DNA of 12,821 nt. It comes from a virus. The notes below the pieces were generated by a model, which made no database searches, was not told the DNA's origin, and saw only the letters and a program-made list of their open reading frames with translations. Positions 5,408-8,566 of this stretch are shown here, piece after piece. How positions within the stretch are numbered: the first letter of the stretch is position 1; each line of letters begins with the position of its first letter. A program made the position numbers and the translations under genes. Location of the stretch: the UHGV virus genome UHGV-0294068; one strand, 5' to 3'.

Positions 5408-5422
5408 TTACCCCTGAGGTAA
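5408..5422. promoter_or_regulatory. Operator-like palindrome TTACC-cctga-GGTAA overlapping the RBS of the first nin-block gene
   Basis: One of eight copies of the TTACC-N5-GGTAA motif in the window. Confidence 0.55.
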
Positions 5423-5463
5423 TTAAAAACCACATAAGACACGAAATCAATAGATCTTAGAAC

Positions 5464-5491
5464 ATTTTATTACCTAACAGGTAATTATCAA
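5464..5491 (-). promoter_or_regulatory. Candidate sigma70 promoter for the nin-like operon with an operator filling the spacer
   Basis: Minus strand TTGATA (5491-5486), 16-nt spacer, TAAAAT (5469-5464); the 17-bp palindrome ATTACCTAACAGGTAAT (5469-5485) occupies the spacer. Confidence 0.5.
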
Positions 5492-5521
5492 GACGTAAAA
5501 AAATGCGCTATCGCGCTGGTA

Positions 5522-6322
5522 TTACTTGATAAATCCTGCCGCCTTTCCCCGCCTGTATTCCTCCATCAGCCACTGCGCCGGTGTTATTCCCCCCAGGGTA
5601 GCGGCGTTAGGCATACACCCGAAACTTCGCCCTGGTGGATGGTAAACGCCTCTCCCTGTGTCCGGAGGCGTACTCATGGGTTCTGGCTTTGCCTGTATGC
5701 TGATCACCGGATCGGGTATCTGCTGTCCGGAAGCCACCTTTTTCGCCCAATCATCAAGCAGCCTGCGCGCGTGTTTCTCAACCTCAATCTCGCTAAGCTG
5801 GCGCTGATACATTGCACGGCGGGTATCACATACGACCCAGTACATAACCGGATGCCGCCACGGGAATCTTTCGGGACCACCAGGATATAAACTTTTTTCC
5901 TTGCTGTACCGGTGAAACTCCGCCATCACATCGTCAATGGTGACGCCAAGAACCATCTTGCTGTCTTTACACCACTTGATAAATTGCCCTGGCGACGGCC
6001 AGAACGGAGATTCACTGGCGCGGGCGTGGCGCATACCAGCAGAAACCTGTTCACGGGTTCGGATCCCCCCTTCGGCAAACGCAGCAATCCACTGCTGTTT
6101 TGCAGCAACTTCCTGCTCTGGCGTCTTCAGGTTGGTTACCACTGCCGCCGGAAACAGTTGTTTCAACTGTTTGAAAAGGGCATCAACAAGCCTCTCTGCT
6201 GACATGTTCACTACGTTGTCATTGTTGGTGTACTGATGCTCATAACCTGACATGCGAGAAAGGGCTTCTCCGTCACGGTTTTGTATCGCGGTAAAAACGT
6301 TGTTCACAAGAAATCCTCCCAT
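5522..6322 (-). CDS. Replication protein P-like helicase loader
   Basis: MRHARASESPFWPSPGQFIKWCKD aligns with lambda P as I recall it (MRVARRQNRPFLPSPGQFVAWCRE); sits directly downstream of, and overlapping, the O-like gene. Confidence 0.8.
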   Translation of the reverse strand: MGGFLVNNVFTAIQNRDGEALSRMSGYEHQYTNNDNVVNMSAERLVDALFKQLKQLFPAAVVTNLKTPEQEVAAKQQWIAAFAEGGIRTREQVSAGMRHARASESPFWPSPGQFIKWCKDSKMVLGVTIDDVMAEFHRYSKEKSLYPGGPERFPWRHPVMYWVVCDTRRAMYQRQLSEIEVEKHARRLLDDWAKKVASGQQIPDPVISIQAKPEPMSTPPDTGRGVYHPPGRSFGCMPNAATLGGITPAQWLMEEYRRGKAAGFIK

Positions 6323-7095
6323 GCTTCAGGGCTGTTCCAGTGCGGAACGTTGTTATCAGGTAATGTTGATTGCTTCTGTCTGCTAATCTGCAGCCGCCTT
6401 GCCAGCTTCTGCTCCCACTGTGCCTGATGGTATGCCCTACCCTCAGCCATCCAGTAAATTCTGAACTCTGCAAGTTCCTGTGCCGTTGGCAGACTGTCCA
6501 GGTAGATCCCCTGCAATGAGCTTTTCCGAAGAAAGTCATCTGATGGCTGCCATTGTTCATGCATGACAAATTTGCCTAATTGCCCTGGCCCACCAGGAGG
6601 AACAAAGTTATTCATCACGGCGTTGTTTGCGCCGGGGTCATGATGCACAGAATCCCCGTTTTTTGTCCTGCTCTCCCTCTCTTGGTTAAATGACTGGTTA
6701 TATGACTGGTTCTGGATCCCGTTTTTGGGATCATTCAACATCCCGTTTTTGGGTATATTCCCGTTTTCGGGAACATTACCGTTTTCGGGTTCATTACCCC
6801 CTTCCCGGTTGCCTTTAATGTTCCCGTTTTTGGTTATATTAAGAGAGAAAACCCGCACTCTTTTCGTCGCTCCCTTTCTCTCTCCGGTATCTGAAATAAG
6901 CCCCATTTTCATGAGCGATATAAGCCCGGCCTGCACGGTTTTTTTATTCAGGCAAGTGTCTTTAACGAGGCGTTCTATGCTGGGGTAGCAGAGGTTATAT
7001 TCATCGGCTCTGTCAGCCATCGAGAGCAGTATGAGCTTTAATGACGAGCTACCTGGATCTGTCTCCCAGGCCCAATCTGTTGCATGTCTGCTCAT
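6304..7095 (-). CDS. Replication initiator, lambda O-like, with origin iterons inside the coding sequence
   Basis: N-terminal winged-helix-like region, central N/G-rich low-complexity linker encoded by DNA iterons, C-terminal domain next to P; GGAG RBS before ATG 7095. Confidence 0.75.
   Translation of the reverse strand: MSRHATDWAWETDPGSSSLKLILLSMADRADEYNLCYPSIERLVKDTCLNKKTVQAGLISLMKMGLISDTGERKGATKRVRVFSLNITKNGNIKGNREGGNEPENGNVPENGNIPKNGMLNDPKNGIQNQSYNQSFNQERESRTKNGDSVHHDPGANNAVMNNFVPPGGPGQLGKFVMHEQWQPSDDFLRKSSLQGIYLDSLPTAQELAEFRIYWMAEGRAYHQAQWEQKLARRLQISRQKQSTLPDNNVPHWNSPEAWEDFL
6717..6833. repeat. Replication-origin iterons
   Basis: TCCCGTTTTTGGG / TCCCGTTTTCGGG / TACCGTTTTCGGG copies starting at 6717, 6741, 6759, 6777, a degenerate copy near 6795, and 6822; mostly 18-bp spacing; all inside the O-like ORF. 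Confidence 0.75.
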
Positions 7096-7110
7096 GATTA
7101 ATCTCCGCTA

Positions 7111-7380
7111 TCAGCTTGAATGTTGTGGGGAGGAATTAATCATGATCTGCTTAATCTCTGCCCTGATACGACGGTTTGATTCCATGGTGCACTCAACACA
7201 GTGTCCGTTGTAAACCCAGCGTTCACTGTCATGTCCGTGCTTACATGGTTTTCCGGTGTAGTAGCGTTTAAGTCCGCGCTTTGCGGCATCAATACGTGTA
7301 ATGATTTCCATGGTAAGCCCTGTTATTAGTATTGGGATTACGGTCATTTTGTGCTGACACAAAAAAAAGATCAACCACAT
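7111..7380 (-). CDS. Hypothetical small protein with zinc-ribbon-like motif (CKHGH...CVEC), in the cII position
   Basis: ORF between the Cro-like gene and O. Start ambiguous: ATG 7380, 7347 or 7311; none has a strong RBS. Confidence 0.4.
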   Translation of the reverse strand: MWLIFFLCQHKMTVIPILITGLTMEIITRIDAAKRGLKRYYTGKPCKHGHDSERWVYNGHCVECTMESNRRIRAEIKQIMINSSPQHSS

Positions 7381-7391
7381 TTGGTTATTTA

Positions 7392-7406
7392 TTACCTTTG
7401 AGGTAC
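7392..7406. promoter_or_regulatory. Operator-like palindrome TTACC-tttga-GGTAc
   Basis: Lies between the Cro-like gene and the next gene, just downstream of a hairpin. Confidence 0.45.
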
Positions 7407-7410
7407 GAAT

Positions 7411-7440
7411 AGATATGAAAAGACCGCCGGGTGGCGGTCT
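7411..7440 (-). terminator. Candidate intrinsic terminator just downstream of the Cro-like gene (tR1-like position)
   Basis: AGACCGCC-gggt-GGCGGTCT (7421-7440), 8-bp GC-rich stem; minus-strand RNA continues UUUCAUAUCU. Confidence 0.45.
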
Positions 7441-7461
7441 ACAGAGGGTTGTAGCTGGATA

Positions 7462-7692
7462 TCATGAGTAGAAGAAGTATGCCAGTTCTGCTTTTGAGTG
7501 CAGCCATTGTCTTGATTTACAGGCTTTAAAAAGCCCATTCATCAATACCTTACCTGGCATTTTGCGCTTACCTGTTAAGTGAGTCTGGATATAGTGACTC
7601 GTCGTTCCGGCTTCCTGTGCGAAGGCTTCACGCTCATCCGGAGTAAGTGCAAGCCAGTGCTTTTTGAAATCGAAATGTCCGTTATCGCTCAT
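7462..7692 (-). CDS. Cro/YdaS-like HTH regulator
   Basis: 76 aa; EAFAQEAGTTSHYIQTHLTGKRKMPGK resembles the Cro/YdaS HTH pattern; divergent from the repressor gene. Confidence 0.55.
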   Translation of the reverse strand: MSDNGHFDFKKHWLALTPDEREAFAQEAGTTSHYIQTHLTGKRKMPGKVLMNGLFKACKSRQWLHSKAELAYFFYS

Positions 7693-7717
7693 AGCTATTG
7701 CCTGATATTTATTTCAG

Positions 7718-7746
7718 ATAATAAATATTCACCTATAAGGTAACAA
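7718..7746 (-). promoter_or_regulatory. Candidate promoter for the Cro-like gene (PR analogue)
   Basis: Minus strand TTGTTA (7746-7741), 17-nt spacer, TATTAT (7723-7718); an operator half-site pair overlaps the -35 and spacer. Confidence 0.45.
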
Positions 7747-7791
7747 AAATCAAGGATAGTTACCCATGAGGTGCATTTACCTGTTGGGTAA
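7729..7791. promoter_or_regulatory. Tripartite operator cluster in the divergent immunity region
   Basis: Three sites: tCACC-tataa-GGTAA (7729-7743), TTACC-catga-GGTgc (7760-7774), TTACC-tgttg-GGTAA (7777-7791). The last two are 17 bp centre to centre. Confidence 0.6.
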
Positions 7792-7846
7792 TATTGCTTT
7801 AAATTGAATCATCTTCTGATTCAGATATGAGGCGATTTTCCAGAAA

Positions 7847-8431
7847 ATGAAAAGTATCCAGGACGTCCGCAGGCAAAATCTCAACGACTTGATCGACCGT
7901 GAATTCAATGGTGTTCAGACGCGGATGGCTGAAAAACTTGGAACTCAGGCAAATCTGGTAAACCGCTGGGCTCTTGGCAAGAAGGTTATCGGCGACCAGG
8001 TTGCGCGAAAAATTGAAGCTGCCGCCAATAAACCCCGTAACTGGCTTGATATCGATCGCTCGCTTTCTCAGGAAGGTTTTCAGCCTGTCGGACCAAGCGA
8101 CATTGGTCAACTGGCGGCTCACAACCTGGAACGCTGGATGAGCGAAAGCCGCGACCTTTCAACGCAGGGAAAACTTCACCGCGCATCCGGCGTCGCCCAG
8201 GTAACAATCAGCCGCCTGTTAAACAATGAGGTCAGCGTTTCCATTTCCACCCTGGAGAATGTTGCATCCGCATTTGGGCGTCACGGATATGAATTACTGA
8301 TTCACCCGCACGACCCCGCGACTATCAACTATGACCGCTCGCGCTACGCATTGTTACCTGAAACAGAGAAGGCAAAGATCGAAAGTTACATTGAATTTGT
8401 CATCAACCAGAACGAAAAAAACAAACAATAA
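7847..8431 (+). CDS. Prophage repressor (cI position) with tandem XRE-type HTH domains and no LexA-like peptidase domain
   Basis: 194 aa; first HTH around residues 10-65 (QTRMAEKLGTQANLVNRWALGKK), second around 95-160 (ASGVAQVTISRLLNNE); no Ser/Lys autoprotease-like C-terminus; followed by a terminator. Confidence 0.7.
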   Translation: MKSIQDVRRQNLNDLIDREFNGVQTRMAEKLGTQANLVNRWALGKKVIGDQVARKIEAAANKPRNWLDIDRSLSQEGFQPVGPSDIGQLAAHNLERWMSESRDLSTQGKLHRASGVAQVTISRLLNNEVSVSISTLENVASAFGRHGYELLIHPHDPATINYDRSRYALLPETEKAKIESYIEFVINQNEKNKQ

Positions 8432-8452
8432 AATCATATTTTTCAGTAAGTA

Positions 8453-8475
8453 AGCCGCCTTCTGGCGGCTTTTTT
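8453..8475 (+). terminator. Rho-independent terminator after the repressor gene
   Basis: AGCCGCC-ttct-GGCGGCT followed by TTTTT. Confidence 0.8.
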
Positions 8476-8487
8476 ATTGCCTATTTG

Positions 8488-8504
8488 ATTACCTAACGGG
8501 TAAT
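8488..8504. promoter_or_regulatory. Operator palindrome ATTACC-taacg-GGTAAT upstream of the early-left promoter
   Basis: Perfect 6-bp arms, 17 bp overall; nearly identical to the site at 5469-5485. Confidence 0.6.
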
Positions 8505-8522
8505 TTTTTTAACTCATATCTA

Positions 8523-8566
8523 TTGACATCAAACCAGATACGCATAATTATTACCTCAACGGTAAC
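8523..8566 (+). promoter_or_regulatory. Candidate early-left promoter (pL analogue) with a downstream operator
   Basis: TTGACA (8523-8528), -10 around 8544-8550 (ATAATT/TAATTA), then ATTACC-tcaac-GGTAAc (8550-8566) over the start region. Confidence 0.55.

What the first reader, a model, noticed from the sequence alone, without database searches (positions are those of the whole stretch)
5408..8566. One operator motif, TTACC-N5-GGTAA, at eight sites in four control regions
The same 15-17 bp palindrome occurs at 5408-5422 and 5469-5485 (nin-block promoter), 7392-7406 (after the Cro-like gene), 7729-7743, 7760-7774 and 7777-7791 (divergent repressor/Cro region), and 8488-8504 and 8550-8566 (early-left promoter). 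Two copies are perfect 17-mers differing only at the centre. This implies one repressor shuts off early-left, early-right and the nin/late-proximal operon directly. Lambda has operators only at pL and pR, so a third operator-controlled promoter between P and the nin block is unusual.
Basis: seen in the sequence. Interest (0 to 1): 0.65.

Follow-up and report, generated by a model that had tools for sequence, protein, structure and literature searches.

The report
Repressor operators of phiV10-like prophage
The repeated TTACC-N5-GGTAA palindrome is real and almost certainly marks where the prophage repressor binds in an E. coli phiV10/epsilon15-type prophage, but the same scattered operator set is already annotated in phage epsilon15, so this is a well-supported yet ordinary feature of that phage family.

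Summary
All eight sites exist at the stated coordinates, and two more lie at 906-920 and 924-938 in front of the small terminase gene. Enrichment is extreme: 6 perfect and 3 one-mismatch sites in 12.8 kb, against 0 and 11 in 200 kb of E. coli K-12, and all nine sit in the 7.9% of the window that is intergenic. The window is not lambdoid. It is a mosaic phiV10-like (Uetakevirus, epsilon15-type) prophage whose repressor is 100% identical to phiV10 gp40 and is a full-length homologue of SPC32H Rep (PDB 5D50). The same motif occupies the same positions in phiV10, Tyrion, Klebsiella BUCT711, epsilon15, SPC32H and six enterobacterial prophages. Among 76-80 prophages with an identical repressor, the half-sites are invariant while the 5-bp centres vary freely. 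Operator pairs 62 bp apart bracket the early-left promoter and a conserved promoter after the replication genes. The "one repressor, several operons" reading therefore holds. The "unusual third operator region" claim holds only against lambda: the epsilon15 GenBank record already annotates repressor-binding sites at early-left, after the replication gene and before late genes. Direct binding by this repressor, rather than the equally conserved Cro-like protein, remains inferred. Low novelty.

The parts
7847..8431 (+). Prophage repressor Rep (194 aa): N-terminal HTH DNA-binding domain plus a second HTH-like C-terminal domain
   Evidence: 100% identical to phiV10 gp40 and ZX5 ORF21. Full-length match to SPC32H Rep, PDB 5D50, E = 4e-42. 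Pfam finds HTH_3 and a YdaS-like HTH and no peptidase S24.
7462..7692 (-). Cro-position small HTH protein (76 aa), first gene of the rightward operon
   Evidence: PHROG 35 'transcriptional repressor', E = 2.6e-12. 59-84% identical across clades, with AGTTSHYIQTHLT invariant. No Pfam or PDB sequence hit.
7777..7791 (.). OR3-like operator, perfect core, nearest the repressor gene
   Evidence: PWM 20.4 bits. Invariant, centre included, in 80 of 80 loci. Conserved position in all clades.
7760..7774 (.). OR2-like weak operator (GCACC variant half-site), 17 bp centre-to-centre from OR3
   Evidence: Two mismatches. PWM only 4.2 bits. The same position holds a perfect site in epsilon15, SPC32H and BUCT711.
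7729..7743 (.). OR1-like operator (TCACC variant) overlapping the -35/spacer of the rightward promoter
   Evidence: 14.6 bits. The TCACC/GGTGA variant is conserved in every clade. Lies within promoter-like site TTGTTA 7746-7741 / TATTAT 7723-7718 on the minus strand.
7718..7753 (-). Rightward early promoter region (PR analogue): -35 TTGTTA 7746-7741 or conserved TTGATT 7753-7748; -10 TATTAT 7723-7718
   Evidence: Consensus scan. cTTGATTTTT is conserved in six phages. Function inferred.
8452..8471 (+). Intrinsic terminator after the repressor gene
   Evidence: Annotated as a terminator in phiV10.
8489..8503 (.). Early-left distal operator, centre at about -62
   Evidence: 22.0 bits. Half-sites invariant and centre variable, with 14 variants, in 75 loci.
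8523..8551 (+). Early-left promoter TTGACA-17-AATTAT
   Evidence: The TTGACA -35 is conserved in all clades.
8551..8565 (.). Early-left proximal operator, abutting the -10 and covering the predicted start site (about 8558)
   Evidence: 20.2 bits. 62 bp from the distal site in the enterobacterial clades, 61-63 overall.
5497..5516 (-). Short GC hairpin GCGC-N4-GCGC plus a T7 run after the lambda-P-like gene (weak terminator)
   Evidence: Annotated as a putative terminator in phiV10. Conserved in six phages and nearly invariant in 76 loci. Below the threshold of the scan.
5470..5484 (.). Post-replication distal operator
   Evidence: 23.5 bits, the best in the window. Orthologous to the epsilon15 site 35906-35922, annotated 'protein_bind repressor'. 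20 different centre pentamers with invariant half-sites.
5422..5450 (-). Conserved post-replication promoter: -35 TTGATT 5450-5445, 17 nt, -10 TTTAAT 5427-5422, predicted start about 5415
   Evidence: Read. Invariant in 59 unique population sequences and conserved as TTGAnn-17 in six phages. Same geometry as early-left. Function inferred.
5464..5491 (-). Second, window-specific promoter-like site TTGATA-16-TAAAAT with the distal operator filling its spacer
   Evidence: Its -35 lies in a hypervariable 12-nt stretch and is absent from phiV10, epsilon15 and the others.
5408..5422 (.). Post-replication proximal operator, abutting the -10 and overlapping the SD of the DUF1064 / resolvase-like gene (ATG 5404)
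   Evidence: 19.6 bits. Exactly 62 bp from the distal site in every profile of the 80 loci.
7392..7406 (.). Half-degenerate operator after the terminator (7421-7440, minus strand) that follows the Cro-like gene
   Evidence: 13.9 bits. Present in 56 of 80 loci at up to 1 mismatch. A degenerate [GA][TC]ACC-N5-GGTAA sits at the same position in all clades. No convincing promoter; role unclear.
958..975 (-). Intrinsic terminator ending the accessory-gene block
   Evidence: Conserved in phiV10 and Tyrion.
924..938 (.). Pre-terminase operator 1 (perfect), abutting an extended -10-like TGGTACTAT (946-938)
   Evidence: 19.9 bits. Orthologous to the epsilon15 site 12-27, annotated 'protein_bind repressor'. 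TGnTACTAT is conserved in five genomes.
906..920 (.). Pre-terminase operator 2 (one mismatch), overlapping the SD (GGTGG) of the small terminase gene, whose conserved start is ATG 903
   Evidence: 11.0 bits. Conserved in phiV10, Tyrion, epsilon15 and SPC32H.

Best explanation
The sites are the operators of the prophage repressor Rep (7847-8431) of a phiV10/epsilon15-type (Uetakevirus) prophage. Rep's N-terminal HTH domains read the half-sites TTACC/GGTAA, spaced by 5 unconstrained bp.

This phage places intrinsic terminators between its transcription units, so each unit has its own promoter and each promoter has its own operator or operators:
- A three-site OR over the divergent Rep / Cro-like promoters.
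- A 62-bp operator pair bracketing the early-left promoter. The proximal site abuts the -10 and covers the start point; the distal site is centred at about -62.
- An identically built pair around a conserved promoter downstream of the replication genes.
- A pair in front of the small terminase gene, one abutting an extended -10 and the other over the ribosome-binding site.
- A weak site after the Cro-like gene.

In the lysogen Rep shuts all of these directly. By analogy with SPC32H, it probably acts as a tetramer whose two DNA-binding units can hold two operators at once. Induction would be by the Ant antirepressor rather than by RecA-stimulated cleavage.

Shown here: the sites, their enrichment, their conservation, their placement relative to promoter-like hexamers, and the homology of Rep. 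Inferred: that Rep is the binder, that the hexamers are real promoters, and the tetramer bridging.
For: Enrichment and placement:
- Enrichment over shuffles, over real E. coli DNA and over a PWM background.
- 9 of 9 sites lie in the 7.9% of the window that is intergenic.

Conservation across phages:
- The same palindrome is the top-ranked one in phiV10 (14 sites), epsilon15 (15), SPC32H (18), Tyrion (15) and BUCT711 (13), each against about 0.5-0.65 expected.
- It occupies syntenic positions with conserved spacings of 17, 31 and 61-63 bp.

Population footprint across 76-80 prophages with an identical Rep:
- Half-site minor-allele fraction 0.0007 (1 of 20 columns variable), against 0.305 for the operator centre and 0.143 for the adjacent 12 nt. 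Fisher p = 3.4e-7.

Promoter context:
- Promoter-like hexamers are overlapped by operators.

The repressor itself:
- Rep is a full-length homologue of SPC32H Rep, PDB 5D50.
- Its putative recognition helix NLVNRW is invariant in all motif-bearing clades. It is changed in distant relatives, and those lack the motif.
- The epsilon15 GenBank record labels seven of the orthologous sites 'protein_bind: repressor'.
- SPC32H Rep is reported to bind palindromic DNA as a tetramer and to be disassembled by Ant (PMC9638917 and PMC9986798).
- Overexpressing the identical ZX5 ORF21 abolished free phage and cut endolysin and holin transcripts by more than 99.9% (PMC9782041).
- phiV10 encodes an Ant 88% identical to SPC32H Ant.
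Against: - There are no binding or transcript-start data for this repressor on these sites. The primary epsilon15 and SPC32H papers could not be read, so the experimental status of the operator assignment in the family is known to me only second-hand.
- The Cro-like protein's HTH is as invariant as Rep's, so conservation cannot say which protein reads the motif.
- OR2 (7760-7774) is at background score.
- 7392-7406 has no recognisable promoter.
- The post-replication -10 (TTTAAT) lacks the canonical A2, and the pre-terminase region has no -35.
- The hairpin after the P-like gene is only 4 G-C pairs, so read-through from the rightward promoter may make the third promoter partly redundant.
Confidence: 0.85

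Rival explanations
1. The Cro-like protein (7462-7692), not Rep, is the main reader of TTACC-N5-GGTAA. A milder form is that both proteins bind the same sites with different preferences, as lambda CI and Cro do.
For: Its HTH (AGTTSHYIQTHLT) is invariant across all clades that carry the motif, and the whole protein is more conserved than Rep, at 59-84% against 42-78% identity. PHROG 35 is labelled 'transcriptional repressor'. In the one distant locus with a Cro-like homologue (L098), its helix has changed and the motif is absent there too.
Against: The epsilon15 record assigns the sites to the repressor. SPC32H Rep is reported to bind palindromic DNA. Sites in front of late, lysis, integrase and antirepressor genes make sense for a lysogeny-maintenance repressor that must silence everything, and less sense for a lytic-phase Cro. 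PY54 Cro, for comparison, binds only one site (PMC4488713). Hydrogenovibrio and Thiomicrospira loci with a changed Rep helix and no Cro-like gene also lack the motif, which fits Rep but does not prove it.
Confidence: 0.08
2. The sites outside the divergent region are Rep-bound but are not promoter operators. They would act as roadblocks to read-through transcription, or as anchors for Rep-mediated looping that stabilises repression at OR.
For: Each lies just downstream of a terminator or hairpin. 7392-7406 and the pre-terminase pair lack a full sigma-70 promoter. Proximal sites overlap ribosome-binding sites. Rep homologues are tetramers with a looping-type tetramerisation domain.
Against: Early-left has a consensus TTGACA-17-AATTAT promoter between its two operators, and the post-replication cassette copies that geometry base for base: 19 nt from the distal site to the -35, and the last T of the -10 is the first T of TTACC. 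The promoter hexamers are invariant in the population while neighbouring bases vary.
Confidence: 0.06
3. The repeats are chance or non-functional leftovers of duplicated intergenic cassettes.
For: The early-left and post-replication cassettes resemble each other and could be a duplication. Two-mismatch hits are at the chance rate.
Against: There are zero perfect sites in 200 kb of host DNA against six in the window. Half-sites are invariant within hypervariable surroundings in 76 loci. Position and spacing are conserved down to 42% repressor identity, in six genera.
Confidence: 0.01

Closest known systems
Repressor (gp38) binding sites of Salmonella phage epsilon15, as annotated in GenBank AY150271.2 / NC_004775.2
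   Same: Same motif (TTACC-N5-GGTAA within a 17-mer ATTACC-N5-GGTAAT) and the same genome backbone. Orthologous positions: the early-left sites (32479, 32554, 32616), the site after the replication gene (35906-35922, matching window 5470-5484) and the site before the small terminase gene (12-27, matching window 924-938).
   Different: The repressor is only 42% identical. Epsilon15-type phages have a third early-left operator 76 bp further on and a perfect OR2, whereas the window's OR2 is degenerate. The epsilon15 record does not annotate the OR trio, the proximal post-replication site or the second pre-terminase site, although they match the motif.
Rep/Ant lysis-lysogeny switch of Salmonella phage SPC32H (PDB 5D50, 5D4Z; Kim & Ryu 2013; Kim et al. 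2016)
   Same: Rep is a full-length homologue (E = 4e-42). SPC32H carries the same motif at the same positions. phiV10-type phages carry an Ant 88% identical. The reported tetrameric binding to palindromic DNA fits the paired operators.
   Different: 42% identity. No experiment has been done on the phiV10-type protein beyond overexpression phenotypes. Whether the SPC32H work covered the post-replication or late-gene sites could not be checked, because the papers are not held.
Lambda CI/Cro with OR1-3 and OL1-3
   Same: Divergent repressor and Cro-position genes with three operators between them. The repressor gene is transcribed in the same direction as the early-left operon. Operators overlap the promoter cores.
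   Different: No LexA-like S24 domain. Operators also sit at a post-replication promoter, before the terminase gene and, in full genomes, before the portal, tailspike/ant, lysis and integrase genes. Terminator-bounded units each have their own operator. No N/Q-type cascade is evident. The virion is a podovirus.
N15 CB repressor (telomere phages)
   Same: The prophage repressor binds three OR sites and two further sites over the promoter of a replication gene, so it controls more than the immunity switch (PMC4488713).
   Different: Unrelated repressor, a linear-plasmid prophage, and five sites rather than about 14.
Mycobacteriophage L5/L1 gp71 'stoperators' (own knowledge; multiple asymmetric operators mentioned in the abstract of PMC1934351)
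   Same: One repressor with many sites scattered over the whole genome.
   Different: Those sites are asymmetric 13-mers, orientation-dependent, and block elongation inside transcription units. Here the sites are palindromic and sit at promoter or RBS positions in intergenic regions.

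Membership tests
Uetakevirus (epsilon15/phiV10/SPC32H) Rep-operator immunity system | Genome backbone of the genus: gene order terS ... rep / cro-like / DnaT-like / P-like / accessory block | tested here: met
   About 97% nucleotide identity to phiV10 and relatives over 5253-9000. Gene-for-gene match to the phiV10 annotation. Pfam and PHROG domains agree.
Uetakevirus (epsilon15/phiV10/SPC32H) Rep-operator immunity system | Rep-type repressor: N-terminal HTH domain plus C-terminal oligomerisation/Ant-binding domain, with no autocleavage domain | tested here: met
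   Full-length alignment to PDB 5D50 (E = 4e-42). 100% identical to phiV10 gp40. No peptidase S24 domain.
Uetakevirus (epsilon15/phiV10/SPC32H) Rep-operator immunity system | Operator = hyphenated palindrome (A)TTACC-N5-GGTAA(T) coinciding with the sites annotated as repressor-binding in epsilon15 | tested here: met
   All seven annotated epsilon15 sites carry the motif. Window sites 924-938, 5470-5484, 8489-8503 and 8551-8565 are their positional orthologues.
Uetakevirus (epsilon15/phiV10/SPC32H) Rep-operator immunity system | Ant antirepressor gene (LexA-controlled in SPC32H) | not testable with these tools
   The gene lies outside this 12.8-kb window. In the reference phiV10 genome, p24 is 88% identical to SPC32H Ant. 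LexA control was not examined.
Uetakevirus (epsilon15/phiV10/SPC32H) Rep-operator immunity system | Physical binding of Rep to the sites and repression of the adjacent promoters | not testable with these tools
   Only indirect evidence: the population footprint, the overexpression phenotype of the identical protein (PMC9782041) and second-hand reports on SPC32H Rep.
Lambda-type CI/Cro immunity region | Divergent repressor and cro genes separated by a tripartite operator overlapping both promoters | tested here: met
   Three sites at 7729-7743, 7760-7774 and 7777-7791 lie between 7692 and 7847. The first overlaps the rightward promoter-like hexamers. The middle site is weak.
Lambda-type CI/Cro immunity region | Repressor with a LexA-like (peptidase S24) C-terminal domain cleaved on RecA activation | tested here: not met
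   Pfam finds only HTH families. The homologue is SPC32H Rep, reported to be inactivated by Ant.
Lambda-type CI/Cro immunity region | Operators confined to OL and OR | tested here: not met
   Additional high-scoring sites at 5408-5484 and 906-938 in the window, and 14 sites genome-wide in phiV10.
Cluster-A mycobacteriophage stoperator system | Asymmetric, orientation-dependent sites inside transcription units | tested here: not met
   The sites are palindromic, and all nine lie in intergenic control regions.

The most novel reading that the evidence does not exclude
Every transcription unit of this phage type (early-left, early-right, the post-replication accessory block, terminase and the other late blocks) is gated directly by one tetrameric repressor rather than through a regulatory cascade. 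At the two main early promoters a single Rep tetramer would clamp two operators held at 61-63 bp (62 bp in the window's clade), about six helical turns, enclosing the whole promoter in a micro-loop. The free variation of the 5-bp operator centres among homo-immune prophages would then tune affinity by indirect readout. None of this appears in the literature I could read, and the fixed spacing and population footprint are new observations here. The unread 2007 and 2016 papers may already cover parts of it.
Probability: 0.3. Interest if true: 0.45.

Novelty: new member of a known kind. Interest (0 to 1): 0.25.

Why it matters
For annotation, this gives a base-accurate operator and promoter map for a very common E. 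coli prophage type. At least 226 IMG/VR contigs encode a relative of this repressor, and the 80 examined are 100% identical. Public records of phiV10-type phages do not annotate these operators. The map also shows that the phiV10 small terminase start is probably annotated too far upstream.

Biologically, it illustrates a design different from lambda's: terminator-bounded units, each with its own repressor-controlled promoter. It also offers a clean natural data set, with invariant half-sites, free centres and fixed 62-bp pairs, for testing how an SPC32H-type tetrameric repressor engages two operators.

phiV10 derivatives are used as O157:H7 reporter phages (own knowledge), so knowing which promoters Rep silences is practical for engineering. 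None of this overturns current understanding.

Tried and rejected
- **Primary papers.** I tried to read the epsilon15 genome paper (PMC2698709, PubMed 17825342, DOI) and the two SPC32H papers (PMC3807360, PMC4983836). None is held. A full-text search for the consensus string I remembered (ATTACCWDWWNGGTAAT) found nothing. That recollection is therefore not used as evidence.
- **Literature searches.** Searches on phiV10/epsilon15/Uetakevirus with 'operator' returned only the ZX5 paper, which does not map operators.
- **Covariation between recognition helix and half-site, to decide Rep versus Cro-like.** This failed because both helices are invariant wherever the motif occurs. In the only distant locus with both genes (Paraburkholderia, L098) both helices have changed and the motif is replaced by TACAACC repeats.
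- **The tool-predicted promoter TTGATA-16-TAAAAT (5491-5464).** I rejected it as the conserved promoter because its -35 lies in a hypervariable stretch and is absent from relatives. It may still work in this particular prophage.
- **Diversifying selection on the operator centres.** Not claimed, because the adjacent unconstrained bases are comparably variable.
- **Searches that found nothing.** The Rfam scan of the window and the PDB sequence search with the Cro-like protein.
- **The permissive '-10 abuts operator' scan.** It gives many weak hits because the operator flanks are AT-rich. I kept only the three cases conserved across clades.
- **Chance or relic explanation.** Rejected.

Full report
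**1. The observation**

Reading 5200-8800 and a pattern search confirm all eight sites at the coordinates given.
- Five have a perfect TTACC-N5-GGTAA core: 5408-5422, 5470-5484, 7777-7791, 8489-8503 and 8551-8565.
- Two have one mismatch: 7392-7406 and 7729-7743.
- One has two mismatches: 7760-7774.
- The two perfect 17-mers (5469-5485 and 8488-8504) differ at one central base.
- The search also finds two unlisted copies at 924-938 (perfect) and 906-920 (one mismatch).

Enrichment is far beyond chance.
- At up to 2 mismatches there are 18 hits against 3.4 expected from shuffles, and 0 of 200 shuffles reach that.
- Four 50-kb segments of E. coli K-12 hold 0 perfect, 11 one-mismatch and 101 two-mismatch hits. 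The 12.8-kb window holds 6, 3 and 9.
- A weight matrix trained only on epsilon15, Tyrion and BUCT711 sites gives nine window hits of at least 10 bits, against 8 per 200 kb of K-12. Six window sites score 19.6-23.5 bits; the K-12 maximum is 14.5.
- An unbiased count of all 5-N(0-11)-5 palindromes ranks this one first.
- All nine sites with up to 1 mismatch fall in the 7.9% of the window that is intergenic.

Two cautions apply. Two-mismatch hits occur at the background rate. 7760-7774 scores only 4.2 bits, so its status rests on position alone.

**2. What the window is**

The window is not lambdoid.
- Bases 5253-9000 are about 97% identical to Escherichia phage phiV10 and relatives (BP9, PAS61, ZX5, phiv142-3), which belong to the genus Uetakevirus, the epsilon15-like podophages.
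- The whole window matches chromosomal prophages of E. coli, at best 84% coverage and 98.8% identity. The accessory-gene block is mosaic.

Gene map:

| Strand | Coordinates | Gene |
|---|---|---|
| - | 310-903 | small terminase |
| - | 1025-1372 | regulator-like gene |
| - | about 1478-5054 | accessory genes (DUF551, Ead/Ea22, HNH) |
| - | 5051-5404 | DUF1064 / resolvase-like |
| - | 5522-6322 | lambda-P-like |
| - | 6304-7095 | DnaT-like initiator |
| - | 7111-7311 | gp42 homologue |
| - | 7462-7692 | Cro-position HTH protein |
| + | 7847-8431 | repressor |
| + | 8585 onward | early-left operon (small ORFs, RecE-like, RecT, AlpA-like, MT-A70 methylase) |

The repressor is 100% identical to phiV10 gp40 and ZX5 ORF21. 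It aligns over its full length to SPC32H Rep, PDB 5D50 (E = 4e-42), and has HTH domains only, with no S24 peptidase domain.

**3. Anatomy of the control regions**

- **Early-left.** The order is: terminator 8452-8471, distal operator 8489-8503, 19 nt, -35 TTGACA 8523-8528, 17 nt, -10 AATTAT 8546-8551, proximal operator 8551-8565, SD, ATG 8585. The last T of the -10 is the first T of the proximal operator.
- **Post-replication (minus strand).** The order is: hairpin GCGC-N4-GCGC plus T7 (5516-5497), distal operator 5484-5470, 19 nt, -35 TTGATT 5450-5445, 17 nt, -10 TTTAAT 5427-5422, proximal operator 5422-5408, ATG 5404. The centre of the proximal operator contains the SD. This is the same cassette as early-left, with the same 62-bp centre-to-centre spacing.
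- **Window-specific promoter.** The scan tool also reports TTGATA-16-TAAAAT (5491-5464) with the distal operator as its spacer. Its -35 is not conserved (see section 4).
- **Divergent region.** OR3 (7777-7791), 2 bp, OR2 (7760-7774), 16 bp, OR1 (7729-7743). OR1 overlaps the -35/spacer of the rightward promoter-like site (TTGTTA 7746-7741 / TATTAT 7723-7718).
- **After the Cro-like gene.** A strong terminator (7440-7421), then the half-degenerate site 7392-7406, then a conserved small hairpin plus T8. No convincing promoter.
- **Pre-terminase.** Terminator 975-958, TGGTACTAT (946-938, an extended -10 with no -35), operator 938-924, 3 bp, operator 920-906 overlapping the SD GGTGG, ATG 903.

**4. 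Comparative evidence**

The same motif is massively enriched in complete genomes, each against about 0.5-0.65 expected:

| Genome | Sites at up to 1 mismatch |
|---|---|
| phiV10 | 14 |
| epsilon15 | 15 |
| SPC32H | 18 |
| Tyrion | 15 |
| Klebsiella phage BUCT711 | 13 |

Repressor identity to the window runs from 100% down to 42%.

Aligning the syntenic regions shows that each cassette is conserved, although the sequence between the elements diverges:
- the terminators;
- the operator positions;
- the -35 TTGAnn between the paired operators;
- the -10/operator junction;
- the TCACC variant at OR1;
- the SD-overlapping second pre-terminase site.

The pair spacing is 62 bp (61-63 in Klebsiella and Scandinavium relatives). 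OR spacings are 17 and 30-31 bp.

A scan of one genome per bacterial species found the same layout in prophages of Superficieibacter, Erwinia, Klebsiella, Citrobacter (two) and Scandinavium.

Eighty IMG/VR contigs encode an identical repressor. Across them:
- The half-sites are essentially invariant, while the 5-bp centres vary. There are up to 20 different pentamers at the distal post-replication site and 14 at the distal early-left site.
- The 62-bp spacing holds in every profile.
- Minor-allele fractions are 0.0007 for half-sites (1 of 20 columns variable), 0.305 for the distal centre, 0.143 for the 12 nt upstream, 0.010 for the P-like gene and 0.099 for third-codon positions of the next gene. 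Fisher p = 3.4e-7.
- The conserved -35 and -10 between the operators are invariant.
- The window's TTGATA lies in the hypervariable 12 nt.

This is a natural footprint of a protein that reads the half-sites and ignores the centre.

**5. Which protein binds**

Evidence favouring Rep:
- Rep's putative recognition helix (NLVNRW, residues 36-41) is invariant in every motif-bearing clade.
- Distant relatives of the N-terminal domain, in Paraburkholderia, Hydrogenovibrio and Thiomicrospira, have SIVNQH or TQVSRL instead and lack the motif.
- The epsilon15 record's own labels assign the sites to the repressor.
- SPC32H Rep is reported to bind palindromic sites as a tetramer whose DNA-binding pairs come from different dimers, and to be disassembled by Ant (PMC9638917; PMC9986798).
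- Sites lie in front of late, lysis, integrase and antirepressor genes in full genomes.
- Overexpressing the identical ZX5 protein abolished free phage and reduced endolysin and holin transcripts by more than 99.9% (PMC9782041).

Evidence that leaves the question open:
- The Cro-like protein's HTH is equally invariant.
- In the one distant locus that has a Cro-like gene, that protein's helix has also changed.

Sequence alone therefore cannot separate the two proteins. Shared use of at least OR by the Cro-like protein remains likely by analogy with lambda.

**6. Mechanism (inferred)**

Terminators close each transcription unit, so each unit carries its own promoter, and each promoter must be silenced in the lysogen. 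This explains the scattered operators. Proximal operators abut the -10 and cover the start site, which gives steric exclusion of RNA polymerase. Several also cover the RBS.

The distal partner sits at a fixed 62 bp, about six helical turns. OR2 to OR1 is 31 bp, about three turns. This phasing fits a tetramer with two DNA-binding units engaging two sites on one face of the helix. Induction would go through Ant: phiV10 p24 is 88% identical to SPC32H Ant.

**7. Comparison with what is known, and novelty**

GenBank AY150271.2 (epsilon15) already carries seven 'protein_bind: repressor / lysogeny' features:
- 12-27, before the terminase gene;
- 2931-2947 and 19895-19911, before late genes;
- 32479-32494, 32554-32570 and 32616-32632, at early-left;
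- 35906-35922, after the replication gene.

All seven carry this motif, and four have direct orthologues in the window. The 'third operator-controlled region' is therefore already on public record for this family.

Repressor control beyond OL/OR is also known elsewhere, for example N15 CB at the repA promoter (PMC4488713) and the mycobacteriophage stoperators (own knowledge).

What I did not find in accessible records:
- operator annotation for phiV10-type phages;
- the OR trio and the proximal sites in the epsilon15 annotation;
- the shared cassette geometry and the near-invariant 61-63-bp (mostly 62-bp) spacing;
- the population footprint.

These are refinements, not a new kind of system.

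**8. Verdict**

Novelty: a new member of a known kind. Interest: 0.25.

Noticed in passing
window 906-938 (with terminator 958-975 and terS start at 903): Two further operators, 18 bp apart, lie between the terminator that ends the accessory block and the small terminase gene. The first abuts a conserved TGnTACTAT (extended -10-like) and the second overlaps the terS Shine-Dalgarno. This suggests direct repressor gating of the packaging/late operon. Conserved in phiV10, Tyrion, epsilon15 and SPC32H.
   Followed up: yes
window 310-984 (mechanical ORF); phiV10 DQ126339.2 CDS 41..715: The small terminase start is probably over-extended in the phiV10 record and in the mechanical ORF list. Both operators lie inside that annotated 5' end. 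The start conserved with epsilon15 and SPC32H (198 aa) is ATG at window 903.
   Followed up: partly
L006-L085 (80 IMG/VR loci), region orthologous to window 5400-5500 and 8480-8570: Among prophages with an identical repressor, the 5-bp operator centres and the roughly 12 nt upstream of the distal operators are hypervariable, with up to 20 alleles. The half-sites, the promoter hexamers and the 62-bp spacing are invariant. The centre of OR3, by contrast, is invariant in 80 of 80. Neutral drift at unconstrained bases may be enough to explain this; tuning of affinity is not excluded.
   Followed up: partly
window 6683-6840 (inside the DnaT-like initiator gene 6304-7095): Tandem iteron-like repeats: period 18, CCGTTTTCGGGTACATTA x3.1 at 6743-6798; a period-12 array at 6683-6711; and further degenerate CCCGTTTTTGGG copies. 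This is probably the replication origin embedded in the initiator gene, as in lambda O.
   Followed up: partly
window 7361-7386 (minus strand), downstream of operator 7392-7406: AACCAAATGTGGTT hairpin, then GATC, then T8. It is conserved in all four repressor clades, between the Cro-like gene's terminator and the gp42 homologue. It could be a second weak terminator or a protein/RNA recognition element. Function unknown.
   Followed up: no
window 5497-5516 and orthologues: GCGC-N4-GCGC followed by A and T7 after the replication gene is conserved in six phages and nearly invariant in 76 loci. The stem is only 4 G-C pairs, which is weak for a terminator. It could also be a protein-binding palindrome.
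   Followed up: no
L098 5001-5717 (Paraburkholderia MAG DATJJN010000006.1): A 238-aa protein joins a Rep-like N-terminal domain (40% identity over residues 1-71) to what looks like a LexA/S24-type C-terminal domain, next to a divergent Cro-like gene. The intergenic region carries TACAACC direct repeats instead of the TTACC palindrome. The Rep DNA-binding domain is therefore modular across induction mechanisms. The S24 assignment is by eye and was not tested.
   Followed up: partly
L003 (epsilon15 AY150271.2) 33341-33402, 35969-35983, 24704-24718, 30-44: The epsilon15 record annotates seven repressor sites but not the three motif sites (two perfect, one with one mismatch) between rep and gp39, the proximal post-replication site, the site before the holin block or the second pre-terminase site.
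   Followed up: partly
window about 5253: The mosaic breakpoint relative to phiV10 lies inside the DUF1064 gene, about 150 bp beyond the post-replication operator pair. The accessory block at 1-5250 differs from phiV10, while the operator cassette stays with the replication/immunity module.
   Followed up: no
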